Source: Diplonema papillatum (taxonomy: Eukaryota). Taken from it: a DNA stretch of 11,600 nt. Made by a program: the position numbers and the translations under genes. Every line of letters begins with the position of its first letter. Position 1 is the first letter of the stretch. Below the pieces are notes generated by a model. The model was given only the letters and a program-made list of their open reading frames with translations, was not told where the DNA came from and made no database searches. Below, in pieces: positions 205-11,600 of the stretch. Location of the stretch: assembly GCA_030068145.1 (NCBI GenBank), contig JAPJBO010001038.1, forward strand, positions 64,001-75,600. Reading direction: 5' to 3'.

Positions 205-335
205 TGCATGGCCAGGAGGGCAGGAACGTGGTCAGGAGTGCAGAACCGCGGTCAGGAGCGGTGTTCAGGAGCACTGAACCGTGGTCAGAAGCGCAGGAAC
301 AAGCGCAGAACTGCAGGAACAAGGTGCTATCTGAG
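205..335. repeat. Decayed minisatellite of roughly 12-21-bp units (GGTCAGGAG / GCAGAACCG / CAGGAACAAG motifs).
   Basis: Short motifs recur, such as ggtcaggag(t/c)gcagaaccg and gcaggaacaag. There is no coherent coding signal. Confidence 0.5.
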
Positions 336-530
336 ACGAGCAGCTATTTAGTAAGTGGCGAGGTCCAAAACCATGAAAATTGGGTTTCACCTATCTTTTC
401 CTCCTCAGTCGAAAACTAGGCCGGAAAATGAAATTCCTGTCCCCAGAGGACCCTTCAGGGCCCCCATGCATGGGTGCATGCTGCCGGCTTACCTCAGTTT
501 CATTTTTGTCGAAAAAAGTTTGCCCCCCCC

Positions 531-629
531 TAGGGCAGTGCTGGCTGCAAACGGCTGCAAACGCGTTTGCACCGATTCTGCAAACGGCAAACGTTTGCAG
601 TGCAAACGTTGCAAACGTTTGCAAACGTC
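531..629. repeat. Left TIR of element A plus its subterminal array of (T)GCAAACG(G/T) repeats.
   Basis: Read directly from the sequence: ctgcaaacggctgcaaacgcgtttgcaccgattctgcaaacggcaaacgtttgcagtgcaaacgttgcaaacgtttgcaaacgtc. Confidence 0.8.
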
Positions 630-755
630 ATTACCGTTTTACAGGGCGTATACGGTGGGAGAGTCTTGGCGGTGTTCCTGTTGTTGTAGTTCAGCCGCAC
701 GAGGGAATCTGCTATTTTTATCCCCATGCTGCTTCGCTTGTTGTCCTTCACTGCG

Positions 756-1151
756 TCATACACCGACCACCCTGGGCTGGCCAATAATATTTTTCTTGGC
801 TACCGCCTGCAATGGCAGCCACTTGGTGCCAAATGCGTGCCACCAGATCTCCCCGAGCCACTTGTTTGCTGCTTTCAAACCTAGTCCCTCTCGTACGGTG
901 AGGCAGTCGGAGTGCTCAGCCAATGCACAGAGCTGGTCGTGTAGTCCGGAAAGAAGCGAGGACCTTCGCAATCCCTCTGTCGCGTTGGTGTAGATCTCCG
1001 TTTTCCACTGCGGGCTGAGAGCGGCGGCGGCTTCGTGGAGGGGACGCCGGTAATAAATCCTCCACAGCAGAAGTCCGACTAAGGGTCCCACAGAAACAAA
1101 GCCTTTTCCTTTGCGGTTTGTCGACATCCCACTGTCACTGCTGCCACTCAC
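756..1151 (-). pseudogene. Degenerate internal ORF of element A. It is a homolog of element B's zinc-finger-like ORF, and the CxxC motif has been lost.
   Basis: The 131-aa ORF contains ...NATEGLRRSSLLSGLHDQ... and ...LLLWRIYYRRPLHEA.... These align with element B's ...NKATGRSFLTMVSVLCGLSAHDE... and ...W/THEA.... The N-termini also match, MSTNRKGKGF versus MANKRKVDAW. The ORF is in the same orientation and position relative to the arrays as in B. Confidence 0.35.
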
Positions 1152-1223
1152 GACAGCATAAATGTCACTTGCCCACGTCTATATCGCTCGCATGTGTCTA
1201 TCCATTGCTAGCCTTGCACTGCA

Positions 1224-1327
1224 CCGTTGCCGTTTGCAAACGTTTGCAAACGGCATCTGCCAGATCTGCAAACGCAAACGCAAACGTTTGCGCAAACGTT
1301 TGCACGTTTGCAGCCAGCACTGTCCTA
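1224..1327. repeat. Right subterminal CGTTTGC/GCAAACG array and TIR of element A.
   Basis: Read directly: cgtttgcaaacgtttgcaaacgg ... ctgcaaacgcaaacgcaaacgtttgcgcaaacgtttgcacgtttgcagccagcactgtccta. Confidence 0.8.
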
Positions 1328-1548
1328 TATATCACCCATTCCACGAAAAAGTGTCACAGATTTTCCGTCTGAAAAGCAGCCCGTTTTGGGTCAAAATTTT
1401 GGAATTTTTGGGAAATTTTTTTTGGGATGGAAAGAGCTATCCCTGGCGATTATGGGCAAGCAATCAGCTCGCGTGGCGACCAAAATCTGGCGTGCAGATG
1501 GACAAAAGGTCGGTTTTTGGGCTGTTTCAAAAACCCAAAAAAACGATT

Positions 1549-1617
1549 TCCGGCGGGAATCGAACCACCGACCCTCAAACCCCTGTGTGGGTGTGGTAAC
1601 CTCTGGACCATGGGCTA
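1549..1617 (-). ncRNA. tRNA-derived, SINE-like Pol III module. It is not a foldable canonical tRNA.
   Basis: The minus strand reads GCCCATGGTCCAGAGGTTACCAC...GGTGGTTCGATTCCCGCCGGAAATCG-TTTTTTT. It has a D-arm-like TGGTCCAGAGGTTA, a canonical B-box GGTTCGATTCC and a T7 terminator. No acceptor or T-stem pairing can be found. Confidence 0.4.
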
Positions 1618-1821
1618 AAAAAACGGCGGAAATTCTTTTTGTTCACTACCGAGTGAGAATTTTTGGACTCATTTTGAGTTCTTCGCAAACCGGGCGAAAT
1701 AAGCTCTGAGAGAGCAGAAATACCGTCCTGGGACACTGGAAACGAGTAAATGACGATCTCGCACTTTCCGATAAGAATTCCAACTGAGCAGGCGCTAAAA
1801 GCGAATTTTGGCCCGAGGTTT

Positions 1822-1904
1822 GGCAACATAGCCTAACGGTTACCGCACCCTCCTGGGCCCCTGTAGGCCATGGTTCGATTCCCCCGGTCCGATTTTTTTT
1901 TTTT
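1822..1904 (+). ncRNA. Second tRNA-derived, SINE-like Pol III module, in inverted orientation to the first. It ends in a T12 run.
   Basis: ACATAGCCTAACGGTTACCGCACCC...GGCCATGGTTCGATTCCCCCGGTCCGA-T12. It shares GGTTACC(A/G)CACCC and the B-box GGTTCGATTCCC with the first copy. No canonical cloverleaf pairing can be found. Confidence 0.4.
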
Positions 1905-2692
1905 GCGATTTTTCGGTGTGAAAAGCAGCCGTCTGGAAATTATTTTCGAGGTCTTTTTGGGAAATCTTTTGGTTTTCGAGTAGTTCTGGGATGCGCGATT
2001 ATGGGCAAGCTGCCAGCTAGCCCAGCGATCAAAATCTGACCCCCTCCTGGATGCAGAGAGAAAAAAAACCGATCTCCAGGACCCCATTTTTTCGGGTGCC
2101 GACCTCCATTTCCGGGGGGGGGGTCGGTCAAAATTTTTATCCGACCAAATATTCGGAAAGCCCTGTCCTCAACGGATTCAAACGTGTCCTCAAAATCTCG
2201 AAACCGACCATTTTCGGACCTGCAGATGGAAATTTTCGGCAGAAATCCGAAAAAAGCCGAAATCTGTGACACTTTTTCGTGGAATGGGTGATATACGGGG
2301 TGTGATCGTAGTGTAAATCTTGTCTATTTTATTATTTTTACGATTTTTCCGAGTCAAGAGGTTGGTAAATTGAAATTCTCAATTTAGCTCTCTAGCGAGC
2401 TATCCCACTTTTCTGGGGCAGGCCGTGGGGTACCCCCACCCCGGACATCTCTACCGTTTTTTTTGGCATTTTTGAGAATTCAAAATTCGTCGAAAAAATT
2501 TCTCACGGCGGACAACGGCGTGGCACAGTCGTCAGCTGACGACGTTCCTTACCTACGGGTGGGAGGTTCGGTTCCCGCCGGTGGACTTTTTTCCGGGTCT
2601 GCACTCAGCATCAAAGGTTCACCAGCGGCGGTCCGGAGGGGCCCTCCCCCCTGGATAAGGGCCCCCAACTTGCCATCATCAAGGTTTTCCGG

Positions 2693-2770
2693 GGGGGAAA
2701 ATCTTAGTTTCGTGTTCAGGCGCTACTTGCCTCTAAGTGTTTGATGCTAGCATCAAGTCTTCTTCGCGGA
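2693..2770. repeat. Dispersed repeat segment of about 80 bp (GGGGGAAAATCTTAGTTT ... GATGCTAGCATCAAGTCTTCTTCG). It is the copy of the segment at about 6178-6258.
   Basis: The matches to 6178-6258 are near-identical at gggggaaaatcttagttt, gcctct and gatgctagcatcaagtcttcttcg. The segment contains the 12-bp palindrome GATGCTAGCATC. Confidence 0.75.
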
Positions 2771-2774
2771 ATGC

Positions 2775-2895
2775 AGAGTCTTTTTTTCTTCTTTTTTCCC
2801 GTTTTCTGTTTTTTTCTGTTCTTTCTTTCGTTGTCGACAATTTCTTTTTCTCCTTTTACTTTTCCTTTTAATTTTAATTTTCTTTACCATGGTAT
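2775..2895 (+). other. Polypyrimidine (CT-rich) tract of about 115 bp, immediately upstream of the satellite.
   Basis: tctttttttcttcttttttcccgttttctgtttttttctgttctttctttcg...ttctttttctccttttacttttccttttaattttaattttctttacc. Confidence 0.6.
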
Positions 2896-2963
2896 TTTTG
2901 GACTTTCTGGTGCCGTAGAGTAGTTCTTCTTTCTCTATGCCGCCCACGTCGATGTTCGTTTAG

Positions 2964-4378
2964 CGGGTTCGGGTTTTCACAAACGCCGAACTGGACAAAA
3001 AGGTTCGGGTTTGCACCAACGCCGGACCTGGGCAAAAGGTGCGGATTTGCACCAACGCCAGGCTGAGCAAAACAATTCGGGTTGGACAAACCGGACCGGC
3101 AAGAAGCTTCGGGTTTGCACAAAAACGCTGGACTGGACAAGAAGGTTCGGGTTTGCACAAACGCCGGACTGGACAAAAAGGTTCGGGTTTGCACAAACGC
3201 CGGACTGGGCAAAAAGGTTCGGGTTTGCACAAACGCCGGACTGGACAAAAAGGTTCGGGTTTGCACAAACGCCGGACTGGACAAAAAGGTTCGGGTTTGC
3301 ACAAACGCCGGACTGGGCAAAAAGGTTCGGGTTTGCGCAAACGCCGGACTGGACAAAAAGGTTCGGGTTTGCACAAACGCCGGACTGGGCAAAAAGGTTC
3401 GGGTTTGCACAAACGCCGGACTGGACAAAAAGGTTCGGGTTTGCACAAACGCCGGACTGGGCAAAAAGGTTCGGGTTTGCGCAAACGCCGGACTGGACAA
3501 AAAGGTTCGGGTTTGCACAAACGCCGGACTGGACAAAAAGGTTCGGGTTTGCGCAAACGCCGGACTGGGTTTGCGCAAACGCCGGACTGGGCAAAAAGGT
3601 TCGGGTTTGCACAAACGCCGGACTGGACAAAAAGGTTCGGGTTTGCACAAACGCCGGACTGGGCAAAAAGGTTCGGGTTTGCGCAAACGCCGGACTGGAC
3701 AAAAAGGTTCGGGTTTGCACAAACGCCGGACTGGACAAAAAGGTTCGGGTTTGCACAAACGCCGGACTGGGCAAAAAGGTTCGGGTTTGCACAAACGCCG
3801 GACTGGACAAAAAGGTTCGGGTTTGCACAAACGCCGGACTGGCAAAAAGGTTCGGGTTTGCACAAACGCCGGACTGGACAAAAAGGTTCGGGTTTGCACA
3901 AACGCCGGACTGGACAAAAAGGTTCGGGTTTGCGCAAACGCCGGACTGGACAAAAAGGTTCGGGTTTGCACAAACGCCGGACTGGACAAAAAGGTTCGGG
4001 TTTGCACAAACGCCGGACTGGACAAAAAGGTTCGGGTTTGCGCAAACGCCGGACTGGGTTTGCGCAAACGCCGGACTGGGCAAAAAGGTTCGGGTTTGCA
4101 CAAACACCGGACTGGACAAAAAGGTTCGGGTTTGCACAAACGCTGGACTGGGCAAAAAGGTTCGGGTTTGCGCAAACGCCGGACTGGACAAAAAGGTTCG
4201 GGTTTGCACAAACGCCGGACTGGACAAAAAGGTTCGGGTTTGCACAAACGCCGGCCTGGGCAAAAAGGTTCGGGTTTGCACAAACGCCGGCCTGGACAAA
4301 AAGGTTCGGGTTTGCACAAACGCCGGACTGGGCAAAAAGGTTCGGGTTTGCGCAAACGCCGGACTGAGCAAAAGGTTA
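2964..4378. repeat. 36-bp satellite (GTTCGGGTTTGCACAAACGCCGGACTGGACAAAAAG), about 39 tandem copies, with a higher-order repeat of about 489 bp. The central copies are homogenised and the edges are degenerate.
   Basis: The 36-bp period is read directly. Unit variants (GCAC/GCGC and GGAC/GGGC) alternate regularly. A truncated roughly 21-bp unit (gcgcaaacgccggactgg|gtttgcgcaaac) recurs at about 3569 and about 4058, which is 489 bp apart. Copies are degenerate at 2964-3130 and 4330-4378. Confidence 0.95.
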
Positions 4379-4749: not shown

Positions 4750-4830
4750 CTGGACCAAACCCGGACCAACCCGGACCATACCCGGACCAACCCGGACCAA
4801 TCCGGACCAGACCCGAACTAGACCCGGTTC
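4750..4830. repeat. Microsatellite of 10-11-bp units, (CCCGGACCAA)n, about 7 copies.
   Basis: ggaccaaacccggaccaacccggaccatacccggaccaacccggaccaatccggaccagacccgaactagacccgg. Confidence 0.85.
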
Positions 4831-4934: not shown

Positions 4935-5240
4935 GTGGGTGGACTCTGGGCCAGGAAGGTGGACACCAAGGAAAATTCTGAACCAGGGAAGGTGGATTCT
5001 GGACCAGGGAGGGTGCATTCCGTACCAGGGAGGGTGGATTCTGGTCCAGGGAGGGTGGCTCCTGGACCAGGGAGGGTAGATTCTGGACCAGGGAGGGTGG
5101 ATGGATCTGGCCCACAGAGGGTGGTTTCTGGACCCGGAAGACGGGGATCTGAACCGCAGAGGTTGCAATAAGGGCCAGGGAGGTGTATTATGGACCACAA
5201 AGGCGAATTCTGGATCATGCATGGCAGATTCTGGTTGACG
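4935..5240. repeat. 21-bp minisatellite (TTCTGGACCAGGGAGGGTGGA)n, about 12 degenerate copies.
   Basis: Units with ctggaccagggagggtgga are read directly. The minus-strand ORFs of PGPESTLPG repeats are translation artifacts, because 21 is divisible by 3. Confidence 0.85.
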
Positions 5241-5298
5241 AAAGGATATTTAGCTCTTTGCCAACACAGACAGATCCCTCATTTTTGCACTTCTGGCC

Positions 5299-6138
5299 TA
5301 GGGCAGTGAAGCTGGTAAACGTTGAGTAAACGCGTTTACTCCAAAATGAGTAAACGTAAACGTTTATAAACGGTAAACGTTTACGTTTACGCGCGGTAAA
5401 CGTTTACTCGCCTACAGAGCACGGTTAGACCATACTTGGCCTCCTGGCGCAGCCCACGTTCCATCAGGCTGTCCATCTCTTTTATGGCGGCGTCAAGCAT
5501 CACCCCACCGAGTTCTTCGGGCGTTGGGGAGGTGTACTCATCGTGTGCTGATAGCCCGCACAGGACCGAAACCATGGTCAGGAACGAACGACCAGTAGCC
5601 TTGTTAAACCCGATGGCTTCTTCATAGAAGAAGTCCCTGATGGCTTCGTGGGTCCACTACAGTGGTAGGAATGGCACCATATTCAGCTGCTTCGTCTTGG
5701 CTTTCTCGTTTTTCTTCTGCTGCCTTCAGCTTGACGACGAAGGCGGGTCACCATGGGATCTTTTGGGGCGCAACCGCCAATGCCGCTGCCTTGGCCGAGC
5801 AGGTGCTCAGCAGAGGCGGTGGAGAAGGCCTTATTGCAGAACTTGCAGGTTACCTTGCGCATCTTCGATCCGGGTACTTCCGTGAATGTCACCCCCTCCC
5901 AGGCGTCTACTTTGCGCTTGTTCGCCATTTGTGACGAAAGGTCCGTCTGGATATTTTAGCGATATTTTACTTAGTTGCCCCTCTTCCTTGATAGATTGCG
6001 TTTCCAGTGGATGCCGCCCTTGATACAGTAAACGCCCACAACGTTTACTCAACGTTTACTCAACGTTTACTCCAAAATGAGTAAACGTAAACGTTTATAA
6101 ACGGTAAACGTTTACCGTTTACCTGGAACACTGCCCTA
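5299..6138. mobile_element. Element B: a non-autonomous DNA transposon of about 0.84 kb from the same family as A. It has TAGGGCAGTG termini, subterminal GTAAACG palindrome arrays and an internal zinc-finger-like ORF.
   Basis: The left end is TAGGGCAGTGAAGCTGGTAAACG (5299-). The right end is CGTTTACCTGGAACACTGCCCTA (-6138). The arrays run from about 5315-5410 and 6026-6120 and carry GTAAACG/CGTTTAC motifs, many as GTAAACGTTTAC. A 52-bp subterminal stretch (cgtttactccaaaatgagtaaacgtaaacgtttataaacggtaaacgtttac) is present in direct orientation at both ends. It has the same layout as element A. Confidence 0.65.
5683..5928 (-). CDS. Zinc-finger-like (CxxC...H, BED/C2H2-like with the last ligand missing) basic ORF inside element B. 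It may be the remnant N-terminal DNA-binding domain of a transposase.
   Basis: The 81-aa ORF is MANKRKVDAWEGVTFTEVPGSKMRKVTCKFCNKAFSTASAEHLLGQ.... The stretch AW.GVTF ... CKFC ... TASAEHL resembles the BED finger consensus (W.HF ... CxxC ... H). It ends in an arginine/lysine-rich tail, RLRRQAEGSRRKTRKPRRSS. It may splice via GTGACC ... TGTAG to the downstream ORF at 5387-5575, giving ...PM|WTHEAIRDFFYEEAIGFNKATGRSFLTMVSVLCGLSAHDE.... This is supported by the contiguous homologous sequence in element A's ORF. Confidence 0.35.
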   Translation of the reverse strand: MANKRKVDAWEGVTFTEVPGSKMRKVTCKFCNKAFSTASAEHLLGQGSGIGGCAPKDPMVTRLRRQAEGSRRKTRKPRRSS

Positions 6139-6177
6139 GGGGGGAAAATCTTAGTTTAATGTTTAGGCCCTAGGGGG

Positions 6178-6258
6178 GGAAAATCTTAGTTTAGTGTTTA
6201 GGCAGAGCACTGCCTCTCATGCATGGTTGATGCTAGCATCAAGTCTTCTTCGAGGAAG
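6178..6258. repeat. Copy of the roughly 80-bp GGGGGAAAATCTTAGTTT ... GATGCTAGCATCAAGTCTTCTTCG segment.
   Basis: A 37-bp tandem duplication of ccctaggggggaaaatcttagttta(a/g)tgtttaggc sits at about 6132-6205 and precedes it. The segment matches 2693-2770. Confidence 0.75.
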
Positions 6259-6664
6259 ATGTCGTCTAGGAAAGGGATGCAAAATAGAAAATAGAAAGTT
6301 GTAAAGAGGGGAGTGTACGGCTCCCAAAGTGGGGAATGAAACCTTGAGGCCCTGTATTTTTTTCACCGCGGTGTTGTGTGCACCTCGTTCTTCGTCTCAT
6401 GTTTCGCTCTTGAACGCAGACCAATCCAAAGTCAGAGCTCATCAGTGGGTCCTTTGGATGGGGATTTTCAGTCCTGTTCCGGTGCGAGCACAACTTGGTT
6501 TCATGTGTTTTCCTTCCTTCATTCGTTTTTTTAAAAAAAGGAGGGTTTTGGACAGGGGTTTATACGGGGCTTCGAAAAAATCCTGAGTTCCGGTCTGGGC
6601 TTGTTTTTTTTTTTGCTGCAACTGCATGCTGTATGCCACCTTTGCCTCGTTTTGATCAGCTTCA

Positions 6665-7336
6665 TCAAACTGAACAGTCTTTCAACTGATGCCGTTCCGA
6701 GAGGTGTCGAAAGGTTTTGAGCTCCTCGAGAACAGATCTGTGCTCGTCGTCGGCTCGGGGAAAAACCTCATTCCTGAAATCTGCAATGAAGCGGGCATTG
6801 AGAAAGGGAGGAGAACGTGCGGATCTGCCTTCCTGGGTTGGTCGGACCTTTTCCTCGCCGTAATGGGCGACAAGAATATCAACAAGTCTGACCGCCTCAG
6901 GTTGGTTTCCAGCCACAGGCCCACTCAGGTCAAAAAGGCTGAATCCCTCCATGACACCCAGGTTGCTCTTCAAACCCGAACGAAGGTCAGAGATTAGCCC
7001 GTTAACGTAGGGCGTGGCCACTTCGGCATGATAGGCCTGGACTGTCTGGGGTGTCACGCGGGTAAAGCCTGCTAAACCTTCAGTTGCGCGGTTTATCACG
7101 ACATCGCAAAGGAAGTAGGTCGGGTGATTTTCGTGCAGGAAGTCGTGCAGGGAGTTGGCCTTCTCAACTTCTGAGTACGACTCCTTTGTCCACCGCTCGT
7201 ACTCCGTGTTTGTCCCCTCTTTCGGGACGTTGGTCTGCCGTCCTGTTTGCCGAGATGCGAGCCCGAACATGCTTGCGATGTCCCGGGGAATCCCCTCCTT
7301 CTTTGGATCCACACGCTGTAGCTTCTTTGGTGGCAT
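6665..7336 (-). CDS. Hypothetical protein of 223 aa. The ORF has non-repetitive, compositionally normal sequence and no recognisable family.
   Basis: The ORF runs MPPKKLQRVDPKKEG ... FLNARFIADFRNEVFPRADDEHRSVLEELK.... On the coding strand it is followed by a roughly 75-nt UTR and an A11 run, and preceded by an A14 run. The unit is bracketed by 13-bp direct repeats TGAGTTCCGGTCT at 6584-6596 and 7427-7439. Confidence 0.4.
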   Translation of the reverse strand: MPPKKLQRVDPKKEGIPRDIASMFGLASRQTGRQTNVPKEGTNTEYERWTKESYSEVEKANSLHDFLHENHPTYFLCDVVINRATEGLAGFTRVTPQTVQAYHAEVATPYVNGLISDLRSGLKSNLGVMEGFSLFDLSGPVAGNQPEAVRLVDILVAHYGEEKVRPTQEGRSARSPPFLNARFIADFRNEVFPRADDEHRSVLEELKTFRHLSERHQLKDCSV

Positions 7337-7730
7337 ACTGGCCCTCCCGTTACCGCTCCCACCCGGTAAGCCCCAACCCGAACGCTATGTGGCTTTTTTT
7401 TTTTTTTCCCCCAGACCGGAAGAATTTGAGTTCCGGTCTCTCAGACCGCTAAACTAAGCCCGTATAATCCCCTGGTTTTGGATGGGATTGTGGCTCGTAA
7501 CCAACCGCCACGGGGCACTACTTTCAAGGGTTGAAAGTGTTCAAGCTCTCTCCAGGGAAACGATGTAGCCGTTTGTTGTAAACTTGACAGCACATTCTTC
7601 CCATGAGAGAAGGGACACTTGCACACCCAGTCGTCGTTTTCTCGCAGCACGGTGTAGTAGTGTCCAGCTTGCACTTTCCCTGTGTGGACGATGAAGCCAG
7701 TTACTCTGTAAGTGTCTTCCCCGATCGTAG

Positions 7731-7750
7731 GGGGGGGGGGGGGGGGGGGG
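7731..7750 (+). repeat. G20 homopolymer.
   Basis: Read directly from the sequence. Confidence 0.9.
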
Positions 7751-7806
7751 ATTTACAACTTGTTGGTTATGAGCTGTTCGATCTGGACGTGAAGTGTAGG
7801 CGTGGG

Positions 7807-7830
7807 GGGGGGGGGGGGGGGGTTGATGAA
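7807..7830 (+). repeat. G24 homopolymer, 56 bp downstream of the first.
   Basis: Read directly from the sequence. Confidence 0.9.
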
Positions 7831-7847
7831 AAGCTATCAACTATGAG

Positions 7848-9208
7848 CTACGTGTGGCGAATGGGCTGGACGAGCGTGAAAGTCCAATCAGTACCAGGCG
7901 TTGCGCGGCAACCGTTGGGAGGGGGAACGCCGCCCATACCGGACGCAAGGGCAAGCATTTGGCCGTTCCCATCGAACACGAGCTTGTGCCGCTCGCGTGT
8001 GTTGTACGTTGTAGATGTTCCATCCGGATGGGCCACGGTCGAGGTGAACGGCTCTTCCTCTGATTGGTGCCAAGTCTCACCATCGTACGAAAAGGCGTAC
8101 CCAGCAACGATGCGTGTGAAATTCTTCTCGCACAAGGGTTCGTCGCTTGGGTTCCAGTATGCATGGCTGAATATCTTGTAAGCCGCTCGCTGGCTGTCGT
8201 ACCACAAGAATGGGTCCTCCCACGTGACGTTGTCCTTCGTCACGATAATCCCGTTCATGGTTGACATCGTCCATGGGCCTCTGGATGTCTCCCCTCTATA
8301 TAGCGTCCAGTTGCTCGAGCCGCTAGCACCAGTTAACAGCATCGAACCGTTCGAGAACATGAAAGGTGCCGGGTTATTTATGGTGGGCAGTCCGGCATTC
8401 ACGGGAGTCCACGGACCGTAGGGTGACGGGGACTCGTGTAGTAGACTGCTGGTGATGTTTGCGGGGGGGGGTTCGGTTGAATTGTAACCGCAGTATTCAG
8501 GTGTTCCGTGGTCTAAACCGTTTCCGATGTGGTACAACAAATAGTTTGGCCTGCCTGTAGAATTATCAACAACCACCATAGGGTTGTGGGTCCAGTGACG
8601 CATGGCAACGTCGCTGAACTTGTACGGGCCTGTGATATTTTCTGATACGGCGTGTGCCACACGACTATTCCGCTGCCATGTGTGCAGACCGCATCCGTTG
8701 ATCATCTCAGCGACATGTAAGTGCCACTTTCCATCAGCCAGCACAGGGACACCTCCCCATGAGGTCACGTTCGGCGAATACCCGTAAGCTCCGCCCGTTG
8801 GAATAGGTAGCAAGTCAAGCTGACCGCACTGCATGCCCTTCCAGCCTTCGTCACATACGCACACCTGTGTCGTTGATATTGTGTCTTACTCGTGCGCACT
8901 AGCGGAACTCCTGCTTTGGTAAGTTTCGTGTAGACGCTGCCAACTACTCATTTTTAGTAAAGTTATCAACAATTCATTGTTTACACAAAGAATTGAGGAC
9001 AGCACATCATTCTTTGAATGTCGGTGAGTTAATTCATGTTTGAACGGCTGGCCAACCAAATGTTGACGCAAGCATACTGGACAGGCTAGGTTGAGAGTTT
9101 ATTCGAGAAGCACACCTCGTTCTCACATGCACCATTGGCGTTGCAGTCAACTTCCGTCTGACAGGTTGCTATGGCGCTGGCTGCGGCCAACGCAAGTAGG
9201 GCGTGCAT
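7848..9208 (-). CDS. Secreted protein gene with two exons. It encodes a signal peptide, an EGF-like module split by the intron, and a large domain with an Asp-box (S-x-D-x-G-x-T-W) and many N-glycosylation sequons. It may be a sialidase-like or BNR beta-propeller glycosidase.
   Basis: Exon 1 (9208..9116) encodes MHALLALAAASAIATCQTEVDCNANGACENE. This is a hydrophobic signal peptide followed by EGF cysteines 1-3. A GT donor (GTGTGC) lies at 9115 and an AG acceptor (cacag) at 8865, giving a 251-nt phase-0 intron. Exon 2 (8864..7848) begins VCVCDEGWKGMQC, which supplies EGF cysteines 4-6 and has the C-x-C-x2-GW-x-G-x2-C pattern. It continues as a 338-aa ORF containing SYDGETW (an Asp-box) and sequons NVT, NIT, NST, NGS, NWT and NFT. 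The reported 'M' start of the exon-2 ORF is actually a GTG codon, consistent with an internal exon. Confidence 0.6.
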
Positions 9209-10904: not shown

Positions 10905-11600
10905 GGGAGATCGGTCCTCCTGGCTACCGCAGGTTGCTCCCAGTCGATTTCAGTGTGTGGGGTCTCAATTTCAGTGAGTTTGCGATTCGTCTGGCCTTGG
11001 AGCACTTGAAGGTCGTACTTTCCCCCGACGGGGTTTCCGACTTGTTCCGGTTTTACAGGCTACTTTTTGCTCGCTTTTCGTTGATTCATAAGATCTCTGT
11101 TTCGATCCGACTTTGTACACAAAGTCGGATTGGGTGCTTGCGCCTTCGGCGCTAGAATCTTTTATTAAGAGAGATCGGTCAGGTTGTTCTCAGTCGATTT
11201 CAGTGTGTGGGGTCCCAATCTCAGCGTGTTTGTGATTCGTTCGCAACACTAACAGTTCGTCTGCCTAGGAGCACTTGATTTCAGTGTGTGGGAGTCCCAA
11301 CTTCAGCGTGTTCGTGATTCGTTTGCAACACTATACAGTCGTCTGGCCTTGGAGCACCTGCATCTCGTACTTTCCCTCGATGGGGTTTCCGACTTGTTCC
11401 GGGTTTACAGGCTCCTTTTTGCTCGCTTTTCGCTGATTCATAAGATGTCTGTTTCGTGTGTACAAATCGGTTTCGGTGGTTGCGCCTTCGGCGCTTGAAT
11501 CTTTTATTAAGAGAGATCGCTCAGGTTGTTCTCAGTCGATTTCAGTGTGTGGGGTCCCAATATCAGTTAGTTTGCGATTCGTTTGCAACACTAACAATTC
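10905..11600. repeat. Tandem repeat with units of about 250-340 bp, at least 3 copies, continuing past the window edge. It contains conserved hairpins.
   Basis: Units begin CAGGTTG(C/T)TC(C/T)CAGTCGATTTCAGTGTGTGGGGTC at 10930, 11180 and 11522. Unit 2 carries an internal duplication of about 92 bp. The conserved stem-loop GCGCCTTCGGCGC has a UUCG-type tetraloop. Unit 1 has a perfect 10-bp hairpin CCGACTTTGT-AC-ACAAAGTCGG. Each unit ends ...gaatcttttattaagagagatcg. Confidence 0.85.

What the first reader, a model, noticed from the sequence alone, without database searches (positions are those of the whole stretch)
531..4378. Shared AAACG half-site across three independent repeat classes suggests a single DNA-binding protein shaping this locus
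The half-site appears in element A's arrays as GCAAACG, in element B's arrays as GTAAACG, and in the satellite core as GTTTGCGCAAAC. All are palindromic arrangements of the same AAACG half-site at high local density, with hundreds of sites in 11 kb. This would be an unusual concentration of potential binding sites for a BED/hAT-type protein, and it could nucleate heterochromatin or act as a transposase sink.
Basis: inference. Interest (0 to 1): 0.55.

Follow-up and report, generated by a model that had tools for sequence, protein, structure and literature searches.

The report
hAT transposon ends with transposase-binding repeats
The dense AAACG motifs are the ordinary transposase-docking repeats at the ends of two related, broken hAT "jumping genes" in a protist genome, and the neighbouring satellite shares the motif no more than chance allows.

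Summary
The motif arrays are real but narrower than described. The window holds 104 AAACG/CGTTT pentamers against 42±6 in shuffles, so not "hundreds". Forty-five lie in the terminal 110 bp of two about 0.8-kb elements: A (536-1322) and B (5304-6133, outside the finding's coordinates). Thirty-six are one per unit of a 36-bp satellite. The remaining sequence is at background (2.4 per kb).

A and B are not independent. Both are internally deleted hAT transposons of one clade. They share the CAGTG tip, an 11-bp terminal inverted repeat (TIR), 8-bp CCCTAGGG-type flanks and a first site at nucleotide 12. Their site layouts are co-linear with each other and with an autonomous relative found in an ENA assembly. 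The site is G-N-AAACG, with N specific to each family: C in A, T in B, G in the relative. This is the architecture known from maize Ac (AAACGG) and Hermes (BED finger binding subterminal repeats).

The satellite link is not significant: p=0.13 for the consensus monomer. The perfect palindrome GTTTGCGCAAAC is a minority variant, probably derived. No intact transposase is encoded in the window. Heterochromatin or "sink" roles were not tested.

Verdict: new members of a known kind, with modest interest.

The parts
528..535 (.). Left 8-bp flank of element A, CCCTAGGG. Read as a target-site duplication (TSD) and preferred target.
   Evidence: By analogy with 11 copies of relative F, which are flanked by identical 8-mers.
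536..546 (+). Element A, 11-bp terminal inverted repeat (TIR) at the 3' end of the element, CAGTGCTGGCT.
   Evidence: Inverted repeat I6, 22 of 23 positions complementary with 1305-1327. Ends shown.
547..639 (.). Element A subterminal array: 11 AAACG sites, 10 of them (T)GCAAACG, in both orientations. Includes the palindromes GCAAACGCGTTTGC and GCAAACGTTTGC.
632..1127 (-). Element A internal remnant: the C-terminal roughly 140 aa of a hAT transposase, frameshifted, with a deletion inside the dimerisation motif.
   Evidence: 65% identity over 117 aa to D. papillatum DIPPA_05823, which scores 29 bits on PF05699 against a cut-off of 21.4. Aligns to the C-termini of P0030-P0032. Coordinates.
1231..1311 (.). 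Element A subterminal array at the 5' end of the element: 11 GCAAACG sites.
1312..1322 (-). Element A 11-bp TIR at its 5' end, AGCCAGCACTG. It is followed by TCCTA, the rest of the flank being interrupted by element D.
1328..2295 (.). Element D, an unrelated non-autonomous TIR element with perfect 36-nt TIRs, inserted next to or into the right flank of A. It has no AAACG array.
   Evidence: (I1).
2966..4377 (+). 36-bp satellite of about 38 units plus two 22-bp partial units, with a roughly 489-bp higher-order duplication. The unit is GGTTCGGGTTTGC[A/G]CAAACGCCGGACTGG[A/G]CAAAAA. It carries one AAACG per unit, always on the + strand.
5296..5303 (.). Left 8-bp flank of element B, GCCTAGGG. It matches the right flank at 7 of 8 positions.
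5304..5314 (+). Element B 11-bp TIR at the 3' end of the element, CAGTGAAGCTG.
   Evidence: (I7).
5315..5407 (.). Element B subterminal array: 12 sites of the form (A/G)GTAAACG or TATAAACG, in both orientations.
5390..5928 (-). Element B internal remnant: the N-terminal roughly 170 aa of a hAT transposase in two frames. 5686-5928 is an 81-aa ORF with a BED-like CxxC..H..C finger. 5390-5656 is the following region.
   Evidence: zf-BED E=0.043. The 89-aa fragment hits 5 proteins that all carry DUF659, 4 of them also Dimer_Tnp_hAT. 39% identity to P0029 residues 1-185, E=7e-43. Coordinates.
6028..6122 (.). Element B subterminal array at the 5' end of the element: 11 GTAAACG-type sites, including a threefold AGTAAACGTTG repeat with an 11-bp period.
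6123..6133 (-). Element B 11-bp TIR at its 5' end, CTGGAACACTG.
6134..6141 (.). Right 8-bp flank of element B, CCCTAGGG.

Best explanation
The AAACG-rich arrays are the subterminal repeats of two sister families of non-autonomous, internally deleted hAT transposons (Ac/Ds-like, of the DUF659 type).

Each element has:
- an 11-bp terminal inverted repeat (TIR) that starts CAGTG;
- an 8-bp target-site duplication (TSD) of the CCCTAGGG type;
- about 11 copies of a 7-mer, G-N-AAACG, in the next roughly 100 bp at each end, in both orientations and partly paired as palindromes.

Inferred mechanism: the N-terminal BED-type zinc finger of the cognate transposase, supplied in trans by an autonomous copy elsewhere, binds these sites cooperatively. 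This recruits a transposase oligomer, tells the 5' end from the 3' end, and brings the tips together for cut-and-paste.

The AAACG core is inherited from the common ancestor of the clade. The base in front of it (C in A, T in B, G in relative F) has changed in concert at all sites of a family and probably sets which transposase mobilises which family.

The 36-bp satellite is a separate tandem repeat. Its single CAAACG per unit is best explained by chance.

Shown: anatomy, homology, enrichment, and co-variation of the motif with the family. Inferred: protein binding and its specificity.
For: - Enrichment is confined to the element ends: 100-109 sites per kb in the terminal 110 bp, against 1.8-3.3 per kb in the element interiors and 2.4 per kb in the rest of the window.
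- hAT identity: the remnant of A is 65% identical to a protein with PF05699 above threshold. The fragment of B hits five proteins that all carry DUF659, four also Dimer_Tnp_hAT. The remnants of A and B align to the C-terminal and N-terminal parts of the same proteins.
- An autonomous relative, F, is a 2714-bp element. The transposase part encoded by it (P0029) lies on 18 contigs of ENA ERZ25333236. Eleven distinct copies were read, and six compared copies are 99.9% identical. F has the same CAGTG tip and arrays of GGAAACG.
- In all six ends the first site starts at nucleotide 12. Site positions are co-linear, for example B 5' [12,19,36,64,75,86] against F 5' [12,36,64,75,86], and B 3' [12,23,47,53,63,70,93] against F 3' [12,22,48,54,64,71,94]. 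blastn of the B end against the F end gives 75% identity over 107 nt, E=4e-11.
- The base at position -1 separates the families completely.
- TSD: B matches at 7 of 8 positions. All 11 F copies match at 8 of 8, including one with ACCTAGGG on both sides.
- Precedent: AAACGG hexamers in the Ac subterminal regions bind Ac transposase cooperatively (PMC3260210). Hermes BED domains bind subterminal repeats, palindromic pairs are bound cooperatively, and phasing relative to the TIR is critical (PMC10368747).
- Satellite: the consensus monomer against the A and B ends gives p=264/2000 under dinucleotide shuffles, and 2 of 64 control segments match as well.
Against: - No binding experiment exists.
- Direct Pfam scans of the window's own remnants are not significant: A gives no hit and B gives zf-BED E=0.043. 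hAT identity therefore rests on homologues.
- The zf-BED score of the best relative is just under the cut-off, 20.5 against 20.6 bits.
- The flanks of A match at only 5 of 8 positions as they stand, or 6 of 8 if element D is removed, which is an inference.
- The CCCTAGGG flank is a palindrome. Only one copy (L008) separates the TSD reading from a longer TIR.
- No autonomous copy of family A or B was recovered.
- Eleven satellite cores are exact A-type sites (GCAAACG), and 13 nt are identical to a stretch of the A 5' end (p=0.023 for that variant). A historical or functional link is therefore not excluded.
Confidence: 0.85

Rival explanations
1. One BED/hAT-type DNA-binding protein recognises the AAACG half-site in all three repeat classes. 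The locus then acts as a high-density binding platform, either a transposase sink or a heterochromatin nucleator.
For: - The AAACG core is invariant in A, B and the relative F.
- Ac transposase is reported to tolerate variants of its hexamer (PMC3260210).
- Ten GCAAACG 7-mers in the satellite (11 palindromic GTTTGCGCAAAC cores) equal the A-family 7-mer.
Against: - The base at -1 is family-specific at 62 of 63 sites. This argues for discrimination between families, not for shared recognition.
- Most satellite cores are ACAAACG, which breaks the G at -2. That G is the majority base in all three families (83-95% of sites).
- The satellite sites have one orientation only and lack the paired or phased layout.
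- The similarity is not significant.
- No intact transposase gene lies in the window.
- The chromatin claims are untested.
Confidence: 0.08
2. The satellite descends from the subterminal region of an A-like hAT element. A short piece holding an inverted pair of GCAAAC sites was amplified in tandem, so the shared motif reflects common descent, not chance.
For: - The 13-mer GTTTGCGCAAACG is identical between the G-variant monomers and the A 5' end at about 1287-1299, p=45/2000.
- From my own knowledge, not checked here: satellites derived from transposon ends are known in other eukaryotes.
Against: - The consensus monomer, and all diverged monomers at the array edge, carry the poorer-matching A form. 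For that form p=0.13, and 2 of 64 control segments match as well.
- No CAGTG tip or CCCTAGGG flank lies next to the array.
- The satellite is absent from the 80 kb of related-genome loci examined.
Confidence: 0.12
3. The arrays are host regulatory or structural motifs, for example sites for a host factor or CpG-methylation targets, that happen to lie in these elements and are not transposase-binding sites.
For: - Every site contains a CpG.
- Host proteins are reported to bind the Ac subterminal regions. This rests on a reference title, Becker and Kunze 1996, listed in PMC3260210.
Against: - The sites are restricted to the terminal 110 bp of both ends.
- The first site sits at a fixed position, nucleotide 12.
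- The layout is conserved across three families while the -1 base changes in concert. This is what co-evolution with an element-encoded protein predicts, not a host factor.
Confidence: 0.03

Closest known systems
Maize Activator/Dissociation (Ac/Ds), hAT superfamily
   Same: - 11-bp TIR and 8-bp TSD.
- Multiple short subterminal repeats with an AAACG core (Ac: AAACGG) in both orientations within the terminal 100-200 bp, bound cooperatively by the transposase (PMC3260210).
- Non-autonomous derivatives made by internal deletion, like Ds-del and Ds-l3.
- Transposases of relatives carry DUF659 and Dimer_Tnp_hAT.
   Different: - The TIR is CAGTG..., not C/TAGGGATGAAA.
- The site is a 7-mer, G-N-AAACG, with a family-specific N.
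- The arrays are denser (11-12 sites per 110 bp) and confined to about 100 bp.
- The host is a protist, probably a diplonemid.
- The flanking 8-mer is nearly invariant, CCCTAGGG, instead of a weak target consensus.
Hermes (Musca domestica hAT) transpososome
   Same: - An N-terminal CCHC BED finger recognises short subterminal repeats.
- Quasi-palindromic pairs are bound cooperatively.
- Exact phasing from the TIR matters.
- The two ends have different site layouts (PMC10368747).
- Here too the first site is at a fixed distance from the tip, and the 5' and 3' ends have distinct, conserved layouts.
   Different: - The Hermes site is a 4-mer, AAG(T/C).
- Its TIR is 17 bp.
- There is no structural or biochemical data for the present clade.
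Satellites derived from transposon ends
   Same: A tandem array sits among nested DNA transposons, and its unit contains a sequence identical to a transposon subterminal site in 11 of 36 cores.
   Different: - The similarity is not significant for the consensus monomer.
- There are no flanking TIRs.
- Only one site per unit and only one orientation.

Membership tests
hAT superfamily DNA transposon | 8-bp target-site duplication | tested here: met
   B has GCCTAGGG and CCCTAGGG, 7 of 8. All 11 distinct copies of relative F match at 8 of 8, including ACCTAGGG on both sides in L008. A matches at only 5 of 8 because element D interrupts its right flank. Caveat: the usual flank is a palindrome, so only one copy rules out a longer TIR.
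hAT superfamily DNA transposon | Short TIRs whose tip fits the hAT consensus YARNG | tested here: met
   CAGTG at all four ends of A and B and at both ends of F. That YARNG is the hAT tip consensus is from my own knowledge.
hAT superfamily DNA transposon | Transposase with the C-terminal hAT dimerisation domain (PF05699) | tested here: met
   The remnant of A is 65% identical over 117 aa to P0028. That alignment covers the stretch of P0028 that scores 29 bits on PF05699, against a cut-off of 21.4. Relatives of the B fragment carry PF05699. A direct scan of the degraded remnant of A gives no hit.
hAT superfamily DNA transposon | N-terminal BED-type zinc finger | tested here: inconclusive
   CxxC...H...C is invariant in four aligned N-termini. 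zf-BED scores 20.5 bits against a cut-off of 20.6 for F, and E=0.043 for B. A PDB profile search hits classical beta-beta-alpha zinc fingers, E=2e-5. The copy in B lacks 4 residues just before the His.
hAT superfamily DNA transposon | RNase-H-like DDE catalytic core | not testable with these tools
   It is deleted from both window elements. Full-length relatives carry DUF659, but catalytic residues were not examined.
Ac-type subterminal transposase-binding repeats | Many copies of one short motif, in both orientations, confined to the subterminal roughly 100-250 bp of both ends | tested here: met
   11, 11, 12 and 11 sites in the terminal 110 bp, against 1-2 in the interiors.
Ac-type subterminal transposase-binding repeats | Motif co-varies with the element family and keeps its position relative to the TIR | tested here: met
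   The -1 base is C, T and G in A, B and F, at 62 of 63 sites. The first site is at nucleotide 12 in 6 of 6 ends, and the layouts are co-linear.
Ac-type subterminal transposase-binding repeats | Specific binding by the element's transposase | not testable with these tools
   Needs EMSA, DAP-seq or ChIP.
Satellite derived from a hAT end, sharing the binding site | Monomer significantly similar to a hAT subterminal region | tested here: not met
   Consensus monomer p=0.13. The derived G variant gives p=0.023. Two of 64 control segments match as well.
Satellite derived from a hAT end, sharing the binding site | Array lies inside or next to a CAGTG-tipped element | tested here: not met
   No CAGTG or CACTG next to a CCTAGG-type flank between 2296 and 5296.

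The most novel reading that the evidence does not exclude
A hAT clade apparently specific to diplonemids in which:
(i) sister families keep an identical scaffold of about 20 binding sites but have switched one specificity base (G-C/T/G-AAACG) in concert at every site. That would be a natural series for reading the BED-finger recognition code and for seeing how families escape cross-mobilisation.
(ii) integration is almost site-specific for the 8-bp palindrome CCCTAGGG, often set in C-run/G-run contexts, which is unlike the weak target preference typical of hAT.

The G-variant satellite units could then be accidental decoy sites for the A-family transposase.
Probability: 0.45. Interest if true: 0.5.

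Novelty: new member of a known kind. Interest (0 to 1): 0.3.

Why it matters
It removes an apparent oddity. A shared half-site across repeat classes turns out to be the standard way hAT transposases recognise their own ends, known since Ac.

The useful by-products are for transposon annotation in diplonemids. The genome paper for D. papillatum lists TATE, MULE and Helitron but not hAT. This analysis gives:
- exact ends of the elements;
- a diagnostic end signature, CCCTAGGG|CAGTG-N6-GNAAACG;
- three families whose binding sites differ by one base, which could be used to test BED-finger specificity;
- a likely strongly preferred palindromic target.

Tried and rejected
- Pfam scans of the window's own ORFs and of frameshift-corrected remnants gave only a weak zf-BED hit.
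- The word-indexed protein search with the N-terminal remnant of B found nothing.
- Contig look-ups failed for P0028, P0030, P0031 and for two window ORFs.
- The metagenome scan for TAGGGCAGTG-N6-GNAAACG-N(1-8)-AAACG returned two bacterial coding sequences without arrays, which are chance matches.
- ARAGORN and Rfam found nothing in the window.
- I first read TAGGG as the TIR tip, as in Ac. I rejected this because 8-mers outside it do not match (1 of 8 for B), whereas with CAGTG as the tip B matches at 7 of 8 and F at 8 of 8.
- I considered that the left flank of A belongs to the same 'C-type' sequence as the right flank of B. The alignment does not support this.
- The ORF of element E shows no significant similarity to this hAT clade.
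- A literature search for CCCTAGGG as a transposon target found nothing relevant.
Full report
**What is in the sequence**

The window is eukaryotic, repeat-rich DNA. AAACG, counted on both strands, occurs 104 times. Dinucleotide-preserving shuffles give 42±6, and 0 of 200 reach 104.

The excess is entirely local:
- 11 + 11 sites in the terminal 110 bp of element A.
- 12 + 11 sites in the terminal 110 bp of element B.
- 36 sites in a 36-bp satellite at 2966-4377: one per unit, all on the + strand.
- 23 sites in the remaining 9.7 kb, which is 2.4 per kb and below the shuffle expectation.

GCAAACG (33 copies against 2.9 expected) and GTAAACG (19 against 1.2) are strongly enriched.

The arrays therefore exist, but three details of the finding do not hold:
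- 'Hundreds of sites' is an overcount.
- The interval 531-4378 omits element B.
- The quoted satellite core GTTTGCGCAAAC is the minority form, 11 cores against 25 of GTTTGCACAAAC.

**What elements A and B are**

Both are about 0.8-kb elements bounded by inverted repeats (I6 and I7).

Element A:
- Its interior, on the minus strand, encodes a frameshifted remnant.
- The remnant is 65% identical over 117 aa to Diplonema papillatum DIPPA_05823.
- That protein passes the Pfam threshold for the hAT C-terminal dimerisation domain, 29 bits against 21.4.

Element B:
- Its interior encodes an 81-aa ORF with a weak zf-BED match, followed, in another frame, by an 89-aa stretch.
- An exhaustive HMMER search with that stretch found five proteins. 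All carry DUF659, and four also carry Dimer_Tnp_hAT.
- The joined remnant of B aligns to residues 1-185 of the best hit, P0029 (39% identity, E=7e-43).

The remnant of A aligns to the C-terminal parts of the same proteins that the remnant of B matches at their N-termini. A and B are therefore Ds-like internal-deletion derivatives of one hAT clade. A keeps the C-terminus and B keeps the N-terminus. Neither encodes a functional protein.

**A related autonomous element**

P0029 is the N-terminal transposase ORF of this element. It is encoded on 18 contigs of one long-read ENA assembly, ERZ25333236. Eleven distinct copies of a 2714-bp element were read. I call this element family F. Six compared copies are 99.9% identical.

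Its ends read CCCTAGGG|CAGTGCGCCTA-GGAAACG... and ...CGTTTCC-TAAAAGCACTG|CCCTAGGG. It carries 7 and 12 GGAAACG-type sites in its two subterminal regions.

A Tara Oceans metagenome contig that encodes another member of the clade (P0032) has T/A-AAACG repeats. It ends ...CCATG|CCCTAGGG followed by a G-run.

**The architecture is conserved and the motif co-varies with family**

With CAGTG as nucleotide 1, the first site starts at nucleotide 12 in all six ends of A, B and F.

Site positions are co-linear between families, and the two ends of an element differ in a conserved way:

| End | Family | Forward site starts |
|---|---|---|
| 5' | B | 12, 19, 36, 64, 75, 86 |
| 5' | F | 12, 36, 64, 75, 86 |
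| 3' | B | 12, 23, 47, 53, 63, 70, 93 |
| 3' | F | 12, 22, 48, 54, 64, 71, 94 |
| 3' | A | 12, 22, 45, 52, 67, 76, 86 |

blastn also finds the 5' end of B against the 5' end of F directly: 75% identity over 107 nt, E=4e-11.

The site consensus is G-N-AAACG. The motifs do co-vary with element family, but in a way that shows A and B to be sister families with diverged sites. They are not independent classes that share one protein.

**Ends and flanks**

If the tip is taken as TAGGG, as in Ac, the 8-mers outside it do not match. If the tip is CAGTG, the flanks fit much better:
- B is flanked by GCCTAGGG and CCCTAGGG.
- All 11 F copies are flanked by identical 8-mers: ten by CCCTAGGG and one by ACCTAGGG on both sides.

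CCCTAGGG is a palindrome, so it could also be read as an extension of the TIR. The ACCTAGGG copy is a direct repeat, not an inverted one, and so favours a target-site duplication with a strongly preferred palindromic target. That rests on a single informative copy.

The right flank of A is interrupted by another element, D (1328-2295, perfect 36-nt TIRs). If D is removed, the flank reads TCCTACGG. This step is an inference.

**Mechanism**

This is the textbook hAT arrangement:
- In maize Ac, multiple AAACGG hexamers in the terminal 200 bp bind the transposase cooperatively and are required for excision (PMC3260210).
- In Hermes, the N-terminal CCHC BED finger binds short subterminal repeats, palindromic pairs are bound cooperatively, their phasing from the TIR is critical, and the two ends differ in layout (PMC10368747).

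The N-termini of this clade have an invariant CxxC...H...C finger. It scores 20.5 bits on zf-BED, against a cut-off of 20.6.

I therefore infer that the G-N-AAACG arrays are the docking sites of the cognate BED finger, and that the -1 base sets family specificity. Binding itself was not tested.

**The satellite**

The unit is GGTTCGGGTTTGC[A/G]CAAACGCCGGACTGG[A/G]CAAAAA. It contains one CAAACG.

- The best local match of the consensus unit to any end of A or B is 12 of 13 positions.
- Dinucleotide shuffles of the unit do as well in 264 of 2000 trials.
- Two of 64 unrelated window segments match the unit as well.
- The G variant shares an exact 13-mer with the 5' end of A (p=0.023). However, the diverged units at the edge of the array all carry the A form. 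The perfect palindrome is therefore probably a later variant spread by the roughly 489-bp higher-order duplication. This is an inference.
- No CAGTG tip or CCCTAGGG flank borders the array.
- The satellite is absent from the related loci examined.

The third 'class' thus adds one effective observation, not 36, and that one is compatible with chance. Descent from a hAT end remains possible; I put it at about 0.12.

**Comparison and novelty**

The feature works like the subterminal repeats of Ac/Ds and Hermes. It meets the structural criteria for hAT membership: 8-bp TSD, short TIR, and a dimerisation domain shown through homologues. The BED finger is borderline, and the catalytic core is deleted from the window's elements.

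The D. papillatum genome paper lists TATE, MULE and Helitron among DNA transposons. It does not mention hAT in the text or in the supplements that are held. These families therefore appear to be undescribed. They are new members of a known kind.

The concerted one-base switch on a conserved site scaffold and the near-invariant CCCTAGGG flank are the only parts a transposon specialist might find notable.

**Limits**

- The source organism is only inferred. The closest transposase remnant is from Diplonema. The host-like ORF at 7848-8864 is at best 50% identical to protist transcriptome proteins.
- No other copies of A, B or the satellite could be retrieved.
- The metagenome scan gave only chance hits.
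- Chromatin or 'sink' roles cannot be addressed from sequence.

Noticed in passing
window 528-535, 5296-5303, 6134-6141, 6168-6175; L003-L018 element flanks; L019 2338-2345: Every element of this hAT clade examined is flanked by (N)CCTAGGG. That covers A, B, 11 copies of F and a Tara Oceans contig. The flank often continues into a C-run on one side and a G-run on the other. One F copy has ACCTAGGG on both sides, which favours an 8-bp TSD with a near-invariant palindromic target. An unoccupied CCCTAGGG sits at 6168-6175, inside a 35-bp duplication next to B.
   Followed up: partly
window 1328-2295: Element D is a 968-bp non-autonomous element with perfect 36-nt TIRs (TATATCACCCATTCCACG...), inserted at the right flank of A. 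It has an internal duplication spaced 549 bp apart and fragments resembling tRNA T-arms. ARAGORN and Rfam find no RNA gene in it.
   Followed up: partly
window 6553-7474: Element E is a 922-bp element with TIR CAGGGG(T/A)TTATACGGG and a perfect 8-bp TSD, GTTTTGGA. It holds a 223-aa ORF followed, out of frame, by ...VERLFSLMKLIKTRQR, which looks like a hAT C-terminus. It has no AAACG arrays; TTCCGGTCT-like repeats lie near its ends instead. It shows no significant match to the A/B/F clade.
   Followed up: partly
window 2692-2790 and 6139-6260: A shared sequence, GGGGGGAAAATCTTAGTTT...TTGATGCTAGCATCAAGTCTTCTTCG, occurs upstream of the satellite and immediately after the right flank of B. At the second place its first 35 bp are tandemly duplicated. 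It is probably another dispersed repeat whose tip contains the CCCTAGGG target.
   Followed up: partly
window 7729-7750 and 7804-7823: Two long G homopolymers of about 22 and about 20 nt lie between a short ORF region and the 338-aa ORF. Similar G/C runs flank many hAT insertions in the related assembly.
   Followed up: no
window 7848-8864 (-): A 338-aa open reading frame has an EGF-like N-terminus. Its distant relatives are annotated as glycoside hydrolases (PF04616). The best hits are only 50% identical, from EukProt protist transcriptomes, so the exact source genome is not in the protein collection.
   Followed up: partly
window 209-293, 4752-4827, 4975-5134, 10930-11600: Further tandem repeats with periods of 20/33 bp, 10/21 bp, 21 bp (7.5 copies) and about 342-352 bp. 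None carries AAACG arrays. The 10-bp array is partly complementary to the GGTTCGGGTTTG part of the satellite (17 nt, 82%), which is probably chance.
   Followed up: no
L005 3640-4190 and 4540-5727: The related assembly holds two more elements near F. One is MITE-like and packed with CGAACGCGCGTTCG and CAAACGCGCGTTT palindromes. The other is a roughly 1.2-kb foldback-like element with termini TAGGGGGTACGACTCCAGCC..., next to which family F has inserted repeatedly.
   Followed up: no
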